Below are positions 2,453 through 2,646 of a DNA stretch of 4,281 bases, piece after piece (position 1 is the first letter of the stretch; each line of letters begins with the position of its first letter). Below the pieces are notes generated by a model. The model was not told the origin of the DNA, did no database searches, and worked only from the letters and a program-made list of their open reading frames with translations. The position numbers were made by a program, and so were the translations under genes. This DNA is from a virus. Lineage: Duplodnaviria; Heunggongvirae; Uroviricota; Caudoviricetes. The DNA lies in the IMG/VR virus record IMGVR_UViG_2778261453_000010, positions 1 to 4,281 of that record, one strand, 5' to 3'.

Positions 2453-2523
2453 GAGTCGCAACTCCCTAATCAGTTTGCTAAAATCAATCAAGGCAGCCTC
2501 CCATAGCTTACTGCCATAAAAAC

Positions 2524-2557
2524 AAAACCCCGCTTGCTGCCAACAAACGGGGTTTTT
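2524..2557. terminator. Bidirectional rho-independent terminator-like hairpin (A-tract, CCCCG...CGGGG, T-tract)
   Basis: Plus strand: AAAACAAAACCCCG-cttgctgccaacaaa-CGGGGTTTTTACTTTT. The reverse complement also ends in a T-rich tract (GGGGTTTTGTTTTT). It lies about 90 nt downstream of the endolysin stop. Confidence 0.5.
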
Positions 2558-2646
2558 ACTTTTATTCACTTACATTTTGCCAGTTCGCAGGATTTCGTGT
2601 TATCCGTCCGCCTTGGCCAACGTCATTTATTAGCAAAATATTCTGC

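What the first reader, a model, noticed from the sequence alone, without database searches (positions are those of the whole stretch)
2453..2646. Bidirectional terminator inside the late lysis operon marks the R-Rz insert as moron-like
A terminator hairpin flanked by an A-tract and a T-tract (2524-2557) sits about 90 nt after the endolysin stop and upstream of the micro-ORFs and Rz/Rz1. Q-modified RNA polymerase would read through it, but any non-antiterminated transcript from upstream would stop here. That implies the micro-ORFs and spanins also need their own promoter, or are expressed only under Q. An insert bounded by a terminator between two otherwise contiguous lysis genes is the signature of a moron-type acquisition.
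Basis: inference. Interest (0 to 1): 0.4.

Follow-up and report, generated by a model that had tools for sequence, protein, structure and literature searches.

The report
Terminator-led small-gene cassette between lysis genes
The hairpin after the phage endolysin gene is a real, evolutionarily maintained transcription terminator, but it is the front end of a small portable cassette (terminator, short leader, 45-residue membrane protein gene) common in E. coli and Salmonella prophages, not the end of a classical self-expressed "moron".

Summary
A 15-bp hairpin (2556-2524, minus strand) with A- and U-tracts lies 90 nt after the SAR-endolysin stop and upstream of four micro-ORFs and Rz/Rz1. It is not chance: fold z = -5.4. 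Across 22 diverged homologues 98% of cells pair and 6 of 13 pairs show compensatory changes. G-U pairs make the late-operon (minus) strand more stable in 35 of 38 variants.

K-12 Qin has R and Rz overlapping, so there is an insert. However, the hairpin is the 5' edge of a ~210-bp unit: terminator, 25-40 nt leader with a strong SD, then a 45-aa membrane protein (PHROG 6632). In 292 retrieved loci this unit was always intact, behind at least six different upstream sequences. These include another endolysin type and a baseplate gene; the baseplate phage has Q upstream on the same strand. The same hairpin and leader also precede other small-ORF families.

No sense-strand promoter follows the hairpin and no terminator follows the ORFs, so the classical moron architecture is not met. 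Most likely it silences the small membrane proteins and spanins unless Q-modified polymerase reads through.

An untested possibility is a ~75-nt antisense RNA ending at the same hairpin.

The parts
2647..3180 (-). SAR-type endolysin R (177 aa), the gene upstream of the hairpin
   Evidence: PF00959 Phage_lysozyme, E = 1.4e-24. RefSeq annotates it as lysozyme rrrQ in identical DNA.
2557..2646 (-). Conserved 3'UTR of R, including the block CGGATAACACGAAATCC. It travels with R, also in 933W-type phages that lack the hairpin.
   Evidence: Homology maps. RNAalifold gives only a weak covariation term of -0.58, so no structure is claimed.
2514..2570 (-). Rho-independent terminator element: A-rich tract (2570-2557), 15-bp stem-loop (2556-2524) and U-tract (2523-2514)
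   Evidence: Terminator scan. Fold -24.2 kcal/mol, z = -5.41. Covariation: 98.3% of cells paired, 6 of 13 pairs compensatory, 0 of 500 shuffles reach the observed value. The sense strand is more stable in 35 of 38 variants.
2492..2513 (-). Short leader with Shine-Dalgarno GGGAGG (2502-2497), held in the loop of a small GGCAG/CUGCC hairpin
   Evidence: Read from the sequence. Three leader types are shared among different downstream ORFs.
2357..2491 (-). Micro-ORF A, 44 aa, TTG start, single-pass membrane protein of PHROG 6632, with an internal Met14 preceded by GGGAG. Not annotated in RefSeq.
   Evidence: phrog_6632 E = 1.4e-13, and 4e-28 for the canonical 45-aa form. Homologues are named only 'phage protein' or 'hypothetical'. 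Synonymous changes fall in the sense frame.
2223..2354 (-). Micro-ORF B, 43 aa hydrophobic protein, PHROG 4906. It lies between ant and Rz in 933W, P13374 and Sakai Sp15.
   Evidence: phrog_4906 E = 4.5e-21. RefSeq WP_001280935.1. Homology maps.
2104..2259 (-). Micro-ORF C, an N-terminally truncated relative of the 60-aa PHROG 1115 protein seen intact in PhiR12_1
   Evidence: Homology starts at VTDDISRA. phrog_1115 E = 1.4e-42 for the intact form. RefSeq WP_042004856.1.
2006..2092 (-). Micro-ORF D, 28 aa, the C-terminal remnant of a PHROG 4493 protein. Its last codons (TGGTGGTGA) double as the SD for Rz.
   Evidence: phrog_4493 E = 3.8e-6. The intact form is seen in GER2 and L267.
1510..2004 (-). 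Rz i-spanin, with the embedded Rz1 o-spanin at 1599-1784
   Evidence: PF03245 E = 3e-50. Rz1 lipobox ORF. RefSeq 'lysis protein'.
2476..2484 (+). Candidate antisense extended -10 element TGCTAAAAT (hypothetical). With a start near 2491 it would give a ~75-nt RNA that covers the SD of ORF A and ends at the hairpin read on the plus strand.
   Evidence: TGnTAAnAT is kept in all 7 variant classes retrieved by protein pattern, while the neighbouring codons 7-8 do change synonymously. Predicted fold -21.9 kcal/mol, z = -3.4. No expression data.
2348..2377 (+). Weak plus-strand promoter-like site, CTGACA-18-CACAAT
   Evidence: an analogous site in L009. It is absent from Salmonella variants, and the count is what shuffled sequence gives. 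Probably chance.

Best explanation
The inverted repeat at 2524-2556 is a functional Rho-independent terminator acting on the minus strand, which is the sense strand of the late operon. It forms the 5' edge of a portable unit of about 210 bp. The unit consists of an A-tract, the hairpin, a U-tract, a 25-40 nt leader with a strong Shine-Dalgarno sequence, and a gene for a 45-residue single-pass membrane protein (PHROG 6632, function unknown).

The unit sits inside the Q-dependent late operon of lambdoid prophages. Most often it lies between the endolysin and Rz/Rz1, but it also follows another endolysin type and a baseplate gene. In this window the unit has been extended by recombination with three further micro-ORF pieces (PHROG 4906, and truncated PHROG 1115 and 4493 relatives).

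Proposed mechanism. RNA polymerase that is not Q-modified stops at the hairpin. Such polymerase could come from leaky read-through of tR' or from upstream moron or spurious promoters in the lysogen. The small membrane proteins, the spanins and the packaging genes downstream therefore stay silent. Q-modified polymerase reads through during lytic growth, and each micro-ORF is then translated from its own SD. Because no promoter follows the hairpin, the insert is expressed only under Q. The conserved hairpin and leader probably also serve as a patch of homology at which different small ORFs are swapped.

Shown here: the structure, its selection, its strand bias, its strict linkage to the small ORFs, the absence of a consensus promoter, and (for the baseplate context) a Q gene upstream on the same strand. 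Inferred: termination in vivo, Q read-through, the insulating role, and the recombination role.
For: Hairpin and tracts at the stated place. Fold z = -5.41, 0 of 200 shuffles as stable.

Covariation over 22 distinct homologues: 98.3% of cells paired against 91.3% in shuffles, 6 of 13 pairs with changes on both sides, 0 of 500 shuffles reach the observed score, and slid controls fall to 41-55% paired. The U-tract columns are invariant. Roughly 20 alignment cells are G-U pairs (my sum of the per-pair counts), which pair only on the sense strand. The sense fold is more stable in 35 of 38 variants, mean -20.8 vs -16.7 kcal/mol.

Linkage: every PHROG 6632 ORF retrieved has the hairpin upstream. This holds whether retrieval was anchored on ORF DNA (135 loci) or on degenerate protein patterns (79 metagenome loci; 78 viral loci). 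At least six different upstream sequences are involved, including a GH108-type endolysin (L144) and the baseplate gene bppV of Rac-SA53. Cassette homology between the baseplate and lysis contexts runs from about 10 nt before the stem to the ORF stop.

Rac-SA53 has Q upstream on the same strand as the cassette. The same hairpin and leader precede PHROG 1115 and 4493 ORFs. Mosaic breakpoints fall at the foot of the hairpin (2552/2561) or just after the U-tract (2515). No sense-strand promoter-like site lies between hairpin and Rz in the window, in L009 or in Rac-SA53. That Q-modified polymerase reads through terminators is established for lambdoid phages (PMC7547250, PMC8065619).
Against: There is no transcript-end data for this site, so termination efficiency is unknown.

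The consensus scan finds no minus-strand promoter anywhere upstream in the window, so what the terminator would stop in a lysogen is not identified.

The lethal genes (holin, endolysin) lie upstream of it, so insulation does not protect against them.

A terminator is neutral under Q, so part of its persistence could be hitch-hiking. Covariation argues against pure neutrality but would also fit an mRNA-stability or antisense-terminator role.

The 933W-type inserts (ant) at the same junction lack this hairpin, so a terminator is not required at this position.

The sequences used for covariation are related, and shuffle controls do not correct for phylogeny.
Confidence: 0.6

Rival explanations
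1. The hairpin is bidirectional because it terminates a cis-antisense small RNA. An extended -10 promoter (TGCTAAAAT, plus strand 2476-2484) lies inside codons 3-6 of micro-ORF A. It would start a ~75-nt RNA near 2491 that is complementary to the ORF's SD and start codon (it carries CCUCCC) and ends at the hairpin plus UUUUUACUUUU. Together with the sense-strand terminator this would form a type I toxin-antitoxin-like double lock on a potentially toxic membrane peptide in the lysogen. This is compatible with the best explanation.
For: TGnTAAnAT is kept in all seven variant classes retrieved by degenerate protein patterns. Codons 3-6 (GAT xTT AGC AAA) never change synonymously, although the adjacent codons 7-8 do. 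About two-thirds of conserved residues elsewhere in the ORF differ synonymously between the E. coli and Salmonella forms (my codon-by-codon count on the sequences). The A-tract upstream of the stem, which is the antisense U-tail, is conserved in all contexts. The predicted RNA folds into a 5' hairpin plus terminator in three diverged variants, z = -3.4 to -5.1. One leader variant (L156) keeps its small hairpin only through a G-U pair on the antisense strand. The ORF is small and hydrophobic like type I toxins.
Against: There is no expression data. The -35 is poor: TCGCAA or TCGAAT, 8 of 12 matches. The conserved synonymous choices GAT, TTT/ATT and AAA are also the AU-rich codons commonly favoured at the 5' ends of genes, so only AGC argues specifically for a promoter. 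The hairpin is weaker on the antisense strand in 35 of 38 variants, and the scan tool does not call it there. In the baseplate-context copies the antisense U-tail is only UUUCGCUUU. Rfam matches to antisense or antitoxin RNAs (sar 19 bits vs 43; ohsC 18-22 vs 50) are far below threshold and reflect terminator shape only.
Confidence: 0.15
2. The hairpin mainly works after transcription, as a 3' stabiliser or processing boundary in the long Q-antiterminated late mRNA. It would protect the holin-endolysin segment from 3' exonucleases after cleavage in the AU-rich leader, setting different levels for endolysin and for downstream products.
For: The selected structure is on the sense RNA, which would form whether or not polymerase stops. 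The hairpin is followed by a U-rich, single-stranded leader. Under Q, termination itself should be suppressed, so an RNA-level role would explain purifying selection during lytic growth.
Against: The invariant U-tract directly after the stem is a terminator feature and is not needed for exonuclease protection. The hairpin travels with the downstream ORF, not with the upstream gene it would protect. No processing data are available.
Confidence: 0.12
3. The hairpin terminates a 3'UTR-derived, Hfq-binding small RNA made from the end of the endolysin transcript. The conserved block GGAUAACACGAAAUCC would be the seed, AAUAAAAGUAAAAAC an A-R-N Hfq site, followed by the terminator and U-tail.
For: The R 3'UTR is conserved between E. 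coli and Salmonella phages at about the level of the coding sequence, 73-79%. An A-R-N run precedes the hairpin. Prophage late regions are rich in Hfq-bound sRNAs (PMC4104026).
Against: No Rfam family matches. No promoter-like site lies in or before the UTR. Structure support in the UTR is weak, covariation term -0.58. The hairpin occurs without this UTR in other contexts, and the UTR occurs without the hairpin in 933W-type phages. The sequence was not found in the held supplements of the EHEC Hfq-CLIP paper.
Confidence: 0.06
4. The insert is a classical moron: an independently transcribed accessory unit whose own terminator is this hairpin.
For: The insert is absent from K-12 Qin, where R and Rz overlap. 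GC is lower in the UTR and ORF A (0.385-0.40) than in R and Rz (0.54-0.55). The cassette is found in unrelated positions.
Against: The terminator is upstream of the inserted ORFs, which are on the same strand. No promoter-like site lies between it and Rz, and only 22 nt in this window (about 25-40 nt in other variants) separate the U-tract from the start codon. No terminator follows the ORFs before Rz. Nothing suggests expression in the lysogen.
Confidence: 0.05

Closest known systems
Intrinsic terminators inside Q-antiterminated late operons of lambdoid phages (tR', and the terminators flanking morons such as bor and lom)
   Same: GC-rich stem followed by a U-tract, located inside the pR' transcription unit, expected to stop unmodified polymerase and to be read through by Q-modified polymerase (PMC7547250, PMC8065619). 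The window also has two further terminator-like hairpins upstream of the holin.
   Different: It is not next to pR'. It does not follow a moron gene. Instead it precedes small ORFs and is inherited together with them.
Morons (Juhala/Hendrix definition; described in PMC2629481 and PMC8065619)
   Same: Extra DNA between two genes that are adjacent in relatives. Lower GC. The same unit is found at unrelated positions. The junction is a known hot spot, since ant sits there in 933W, P13374 and Sakai Sp15.
   Different: No own promoter, and the terminator is at the 5' rather than the 3' end. Expression is therefore predicted to depend on the phage late promoter and Q, which is the opposite of the independence that defines most morons.
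PeSL cassettes of T4-type phages (promoter-early stem-loop; PMC2839356, PMC4122927)
   Same: A conserved stem-loop terminator motif sits immediately upstream of small ORFs of unknown function. The same motif precedes different ORFs. Breakpoints fall at the motif, consistent with a role as a recombination linker that keeps the cassette transcriptionally insulated.
   Different: PeSLs contain a strong sigma-70 early promoter, and none is detectable here. PeSLs flank ORFans on both sides and generate mini-circles, whereas the window has a single copy. The phages here are temperate, Q-regulated lambdoids, not T4-type.
P22 'ant moron' with sar antisense RNA, and type I toxin-antitoxin loci (e.g. 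shoB/ohsC)
   Same: A small insert in a late operon. The possible arrangement of a short antisense RNA ending at a shared terminator and covering the ribosome-binding site of a small hydrophobic ORF.
   Different: There are only sub-threshold Rfam look-alike scores. Neither the antisense promoter nor toxicity has been demonstrated.

Membership tests
Rho-independent (intrinsic) terminator | GC-rich stem-loop of 5-15 bp with a short loop | tested here: met
   15 pairs (6 G-C, 2 G-U) with a 3-nt loop on the minus strand. Energy -24.2 kcal/mol, z = -5.41.
Rho-independent (intrinsic) terminator | U-rich tract immediately 3' of the stem | tested here: met
   UUUUGUUUUU, where the first four U's also close the stem. 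The T columns are invariant in 22 homologues.
Rho-independent (intrinsic) terminator | Structure maintained by selection (compensatory changes) | tested here: met
   98.3% of cells paired, 6 of 13 pairs with changes on both sides, 0 of 500 shuffles reach the observed value, slid controls 41-55% paired.
Rho-independent (intrinsic) terminator | Transcripts actually end there | not testable with these tools
   Term-seq exists for EHEC Sakai (PMC7547250, GEO GSE143631), but no site table is held. The one Sakai prophage inspected, Sp15, has the ant form without this hairpin.
Bidirectional terminator | Stable stem and U-tract in both orientations | tested here: inconclusive
   The plus strand keeps 9+3 pairs and UUUUUACUUUU. 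But it is 9 kcal/mol weaker, is not called by the scan, and is weaker in 35 of 38 homologues.
Bidirectional terminator | Convergent transcription units meeting at the hairpin | tested here: not met
   All genes from holin to Rz are on the minus strand. Only a hypothetical antisense promoter at 2476-2484 faces the hairpin.
Moron | Present between two genes that are adjacent in related phages | tested here: met
   rrrQ and rzpQ overlap in K-12 Qin. That contiguous junction occurs in 2126 of 5426 genomes, and the hairpin-type spacer in 2021 of 5426.
Moron | Own promoter, giving transcription independent of the phage late promoter | tested here: not met
   No sense-strand sigma-70-like site between hairpin and Rz in the window, L009 or Rac-SA53. 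This is a consensus scan only, so weak or non-sigma-70 promoters are not excluded.
Moron | Own terminator downstream of the added gene | tested here: not met
   The only strong hairpin is upstream of the ORFs. ORF D ends 1 nt before the Rz start codon.
Moron | Nucleotide composition different from the neighbours | tested here: met
   GC is 0.40 (UTR) and 0.385 (ORF A), against 0.549 (R) and 0.537 (Rz). ORFs B-D are close to the neighbours at 0.48-0.50.
PeSL-type mobile regulatory cassette | Conserved stem-loop motif shared upstream of different small ORFs | tested here: met
   The same hairpin and leader precede PHROG 6632, 1115 and 4493 ORFs.
PeSL-type mobile regulatory cassette | Strong sigma-70 promoter within the motif | tested here: not met
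   None found. The U-tract to start codon distance of about 25-40 nt is too short to hold one.
PeSL-type mobile regulatory cassette | Copies flanking the ORF on both sides | tested here: not met
   One hairpin copy only between R and Rz. The only repeat hit is the hairpin against itself.
Type I toxin-antitoxin | Small hydrophobic ORF plus an overlapping antisense RNA with its own promoter and terminator | tested here: inconclusive
   The ORF fits. The antisense extended -10 is conserved, but this could be explained by codon usage. There is no RNA evidence and no Rfam match at threshold.

The most novel reading that the evidence does not exclude
The cassette is a self-contained 'double-locked' small-toxin module. 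A sense-strand terminator blocks stray transcription into a 45-aa membrane peptide. A constitutive ~75-nt cis-antisense RNA, started from an extended -10 element hidden in codons 3-6 and ended at the same hairpin read backwards, blocks its ribosome-binding site. Only Q-driven late transcription would overcome both locks. This would be a type I toxin-antitoxin-like unit riding in phage lysis cassettes in about a third of E. coli genomes. Its peptide, with a possible dual start at Met1/Met14 as in holin/antiholin pairs, would be a new modulator of lysis.
Probability: 0.12. Interest if true: 0.65.

Novelty: new variant of a known kind. Interest (0 to 1): 0.4.

Why it matters
The element is very common: 4474 copies in 2021 of 5426 complete E. 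coli genomes, plus H-19B and other Stx phages and Salmonella phages. Despite this, the hairpin is unannotated in every record inspected, and its 45-aa ORF is unannotated in many of them (RefSeq PCN033, SPN3UB, H-19B); where it is called, it is only 'hypothetical' or 'phage protein'.

If the model is right, lambdoid late operons carry accessory genes built in the opposite way to morons. They bring a terminator rather than a promoter, so they are strictly Q-dependent and silent in lysogens. That would define a second route by which small genes enter phage operons. It would also provide a natural set of terminators for measuring Q read-through, and it points to a family of tiny membrane proteins placed between endolysin and spanin whose role in lysis timing or exclusion can now be tested.

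If it is only an ordinary terminator, it still corrects the annotation of the R-Rz spacer in many prophages.

Tried and rejected
(1) A genome-contig scan with the 16-nt pattern CGGATAACACRAAATC returned only chance matches in unrelated phyla. The pattern was too short, and the single scan of that collection was wasted.

(2) Rfam. The whole window at E <= 1 gave nothing in 2453-2646. Small-region scans gave only sub-threshold terminator look-alikes: rimP leader 30.5 bits vs 47, ohsC 21.6 vs 50, sar 19.1 vs 43. All were rejected.

(3) Known prophage sRNAs (AgvB, AsxR, PasA-D, StxS, HnrS). These are reported between Q/pR' or the esterase gene and the holin, not between R and Rz.

(4) Published Term-seq or Hfq-CLIP support. 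No site tables are held. The hairpin sequence and lysis-gene names are absent from the held supplements.

(5) A conserved structure in the R 3'UTR. The covariation term is weak at -0.58, so no structure is claimed.

(6) The plus-strand promoter-like site CTGACA-18-CACAAT (2348-2377) as the source of a longer antisense RNA. An analogous site exists in E. coli short forms but not in Salmonella forms, and the count equals what shuffled sequence gives.

(7) The idea that the conservation of 2411-2515 reflects a non-coding RNA. It is explained by the start of micro-ORF A.

(8) The idea that ORF A in the window is a disrupted pseudogene. It matches PHROG 6632 over 43 of 45 positions and keeps a hydrophobic C-terminal half, so it is treated as an intact variant.
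Full report
**What is in the window.** The window is part of an E. coli lambdoid prophage. The 701 bases around the finding are 100% identical to many complete E. coli chromosomes. All lysis genes run on the minus strand:
- class II (S21-type) holin, 3795-3580 (PF04971)
- a YdfR/DUF1327 protein, 3575-3231
- a SAR-type endolysin, 3180-2647 (PF00959)
- a 642-bp spacer
- Rz, 2004-1510 (PF03245), with Rz1 embedded at 1784-1599

**Checking the observation.** The endolysin stop codon is at 2649-2647. Ninety bases downstream on the minus strand lies AAAACCCCGTTTGTTGGCAGCAAGCGGGGTTTT (2556-2524). 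It forms 15 pairs with a 3-nt loop, is followed by GTTTTTATGG, and is preceded by AATAAAAGTAAAAA. It is the dominant structure in both the MFE and centroid folds of the region. As a 57-nt element it has -24.2 kcal/mol, z = -5.41, and no shuffle out of 200 folds as well. The description and coordinates are therefore correct.

The two G-U pairs of the minus-strand stem become C-A mismatches on the plus strand. There the stem drops to 9+3 pairs and -15.3 kcal/mol, and the scan tool no longer calls it a terminator. T-tracts exist on both sides.

**Is it under selection, and on which strand?** I collected homologues in three ways, none of which required the hairpin:
- a DNA motif in the start of the downstream small ORF
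- degenerate protein patterns in metagenomes
- degenerate protein patterns in viral contigs

All loci with enough flank carry a hairpin plus U-tract 25-40 nt upstream of that ORF: 135, 79 and 78 loci respectively.

An alignment of 22 distinct versions gives 98.3% of cells paired, against 91.3% in shuffles. Six of 13 pairs have changes on both sides, for example U-G to A-U, U-A to C-G, and C-G to U-A. None of 500 shuffles reaches the observed score, and pairing falls to 41-55% when the partner columns are slid. The T columns after the stem are invariant.

Roughly 20 alignment cells are G-U pairs (my sum of the per-pair counts), which can pair only on the late-operon strand. The sense fold is more stable than the antisense fold in 35 of 38 distinct variants, mean -20.8 vs -16.7 kcal/mol.

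So this is a selected RNA structure of terminator form on the sense strand. The sequences are related, so the shuffle statistics overstate independence. The slid controls and the variety of compensatory pair types do not depend on that assumption.

**What the hairpin belongs to.** Homology maps against a set of phages show four separable modules.

1. R plus a 90-nt 3'UTR (2557-2646). This is also present in 933W, P13374 and Sakai Sp15. In those phages homology stops at 2552/2561, the first stem base, and an ant gene follows.
2. The hairpin, U-tract and a short leader with a strong SD.
3. One or more tiny ORFs.
4. Rz/Rz1.

In the commonest 'short form' the spacer is about 300 bp and holds a single ORF of 45 codons, M[FI]D[FI]SKLIRE..WKFILIW..GQIRWW. 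It has a GTG or TTG start, and its last codons provide the SD of Rz. This form occurs in H-19B, many Stx1a/Stx2a/Stx2c phages, TL-2011c and Salmonella SPN3UB. The ORF is PHROG 6632, E down to 4e-28, function unknown, with no Pfam family. Database homologues are named only 'phage protein' or 'hypothetical'. Substitutions between the E. coli and Salmonella forms are largely synonymous in the sense frame, so it is a real gene.

The same hairpin-leader-ORF unit is also found in other settings:
- behind a GH108-type endolysin (L144)
- behind several other upstream sequences
- behind the baseplate gene bppV of phage Rac-SA53 and relatives. There, homology to the lysis-cassette copies runs from about 10 nt before the stem to the ORF stop, roughly 212 bp at 83% identity.

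Rac-SA53 has an antiterminator Q gene upstream on the same strand as the whole late region, including the cassette.

The same hairpin and leader also precede other small-ORF families, PHROG 1115 in PhiR12_1 and PHROG 4493 in GER2 and L267. In those phages homology to the window ends at 2515, just after the U-tract.

The hairpin is therefore the 5' part of a portable unit, and its flanks are recombination breakpoints.

**The window's own arrangement.** After the hairpin come four ORFs:
- ORF A, 2491-2357: 44 aa, TTG start, SD GGGAGG, a PHROG 6632 variant with a different hydrophobic C-terminal half. It is not annotated in RefSeq.
- ORF B, 2354-2223: PHROG 4906. The same gene lies between ant and Rz in 933W-type phages.
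- ORF C, 2259-2104: lacks the first ~22 residues of the PHROG 1115 protein.
- ORF D, 2092-2006: only the last 28 residues of a PHROG 4493 protein.

ORFs C and D share the motif RA-AFAI(K/R). The order of the B and C homologues is reversed in PhiR12_1. The region thus looks like a shuffling, partly decaying array of paralogous micro-genes.

**Is it a moron?** R and Rz overlap in K-12 Qin, and homology to the window stops about 10 nt after the R stop. That contiguous junction occurs in 2126 of 5426 complete E. coli genomes. The R-UTR-plus-hairpin spacer occurs in 2021 of 5426, at 4474 places.

GC is lower in the UTR and ORF A (0.385-0.40) than in R and Rz (0.54-0.55). Against this, the two regulatory hallmarks of morons as described in PMC2629481 and PMC8065619 are missing:
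- No sigma-70-like promoter is found on the sense strand between hairpin and Rz in the window, in a short-form phage, or in Rac-SA53.
- Only 22 nt in this window, and about 25-40 nt in other variants, separate the U-tract from the start codon.
- No terminator follows the ORFs.

The unit carries a terminator in front instead of a promoter. Its closest formal analogue is the PeSL cassette of T4-type phages, a stem-loop terminator plus early promoter upstream of ORFans that acts as a recombination linker (PMC2839356, PMC4122927). Here the promoter is missing and only one copy is present.

**Most likely mechanism.** The element has every sequence feature of an intrinsic terminator. It is selected on the sense strand. 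In the one non-lysis context examined it sits in a late region with Q upstream on the same strand, and the lysis-cassette copies lie in lambdoid late regions, which are Q-dependent by established knowledge. I therefore infer the following:
- It stops unmodified polymerase.
- Q-modified polymerase reads through it (established for lambdoid phages: PMC7547250, PMC8065619).
- The micro-ORFs, the spanins and the downstream genes are therefore expressed only under Q.

Termination, read-through and the insulating role are inferences. No transcript-end data could be consulted: no tables are held, and Sakai Sp15 has the ant form. A weakness is that no upstream minus-strand promoter is predicted in the window, so the source of the transcription to be stopped is unknown. 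A second weakness is that the lethal holin and endolysin lie upstream of the hairpin.

**Rivals.**

*(a) Antisense RNA.* On the plus strand, codons 3-6 of ORF A read TGCTAAAAT (2476-2484), an extended -10 element. TGnTAAnAT is retained in all seven variant classes recovered by protein patterns. Codons 3-6 never change synonymously, while codons 7-8 do. A start near 2491 would give a ~75-nt RNA that covers the SD and ends at the hairpin in reverse. It is predicted to fold as a 5' hairpin plus terminator in three diverged variants. This would give the bidirectional form a purpose and resembles type I toxin-antitoxin loci. However, the -35 is poor. AU-rich 5' codon preference explains most of the conserved sites. 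The antisense hairpin is the weaker one. There is no RNA evidence. I give it about 0.15, and it is compatible with the main model.

*(b) An mRNA 3' stabiliser or processing boundary.* About 0.12.

*(c) A 3'UTR-derived Hfq sRNA.* About 0.06. There is no Rfam match, no promoter and weak UTR covariation, and the UTR and hairpin separate in other phages.

*(d) A classical moron.* About 0.05, contradicted by the architecture.

**Verdict.** The structure is an ordinary kind of element, an intrinsic terminator, in an unusual and apparently undescribed packaging: a terminator-first, promoterless small-gene cassette that is widespread in Q-dependent late operons. Novelty: a new variant of a known kind. 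Interest is moderate.

Noticed in passing
window 502-1091 (gene 964-623, minus strand): A ~590-bp insertion relative to the otherwise 97.6-97.8% identical prophage of E. coli PCN033. It carries a lipoprotein-like ORF with a TonB C-terminal domain (PF03544, E = 5e-15), a promoter-like site just upstream (1009-982, ATGACC-16-TAGAAT with TG), and lower GC (0.43 vs 0.50-0.51). This looks more like a classical moron than the R-Rz insert does.
   Followed up: partly
window 3790-4100: The region upstream of the holin differs from PCN033 (3790-4067 is unaligned). It holds two minus-strand terminator-like hairpins (3867-3841 and 3929-3912) and a strong plus-strand hairpin plus T-run (about 4037-4085; weak Rfam look-alike ncr982, E = 0.31). 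Convergent prophage sRNAs (AgvB/AsxR-type anti-sRNAs, PasA/PasC) are reported between the esterase or moron gene and the holin, so an sRNA pair may be encoded here.
   Followed up: no
window 2450-2491 (minus strand) and homologues: PHROG 6632 ORFs have a conserved internal Met14 preceded by GGGAG 8-9 nt upstream. Several phages (L007, L012) have a stop codon at codon 12 yet keep the Met14 reading frame intact. This suggests two translation products of 45 and 32 aa, reminiscent of the dual-start holin/antiholin motif.
   Followed up: partly
L002 (Salmonella phage SPN3UB) about 1960-2070: A further unannotated 36-codon hydrophobic ORF (MSKRDVSALCFLMAAAVAISGNDGWGWLIFAGIIIL; weak phrog_14810 match) sits directly after the endolysin stop, before the conserved UTR. 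A related Salmonella variant has a duplication of the GTGGCGCCAC palindrome in the UTR.
   Followed up: no
L013 (Actinobacillus phage vB_Apl-pPE4, PP818812.1) vs L274 (Escherichia phage Rac-SA53): The record labelled as an Actinobacillus pleuropneumoniae phage is 94% identical over the baseplate-cassette region to E. coli-derived viral contigs, and matches Rac-SA53 to the same degree. The host assignment looks doubtful, or the transfer is very recent.
   Followed up: no
window 2557-2646 and homologues: The R 3'UTR contains a short GC-rich palindrome whose sequence varies but whose symmetry is kept (TTGGCCAA, TGGCCA, GTGGCGCCAC), about 45 nt before the terminator. Next to it is the nearly invariant block CGGATAACAC(G/A)AAATC. 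Neither is explained.
   Followed up: partly
L001 (E. coli PCN033) 7226-7533 vs window 3225-3239: PCN033 has about 300 extra bp between the endolysin and the YdfR-like gene, with an annotated opposite-strand ORF (WP_000369851.1). The window has 15 bp there. This is another indel hot spot inside the lysis cassette.
   Followed up: no
window 2006-2008 / 2002-2004 and all short-form loci: The C-terminal codons ...CGT TGG TGG TGA (IRWW*) of whichever micro-ORF lies next to Rz are conserved across different ORF families. They overlap a GGTGGTGA Shine-Dalgarno-like sequence for Rz, so part of the protein-level conservation may really be a DNA-level constraint on Rz translation.
   Followed up: no
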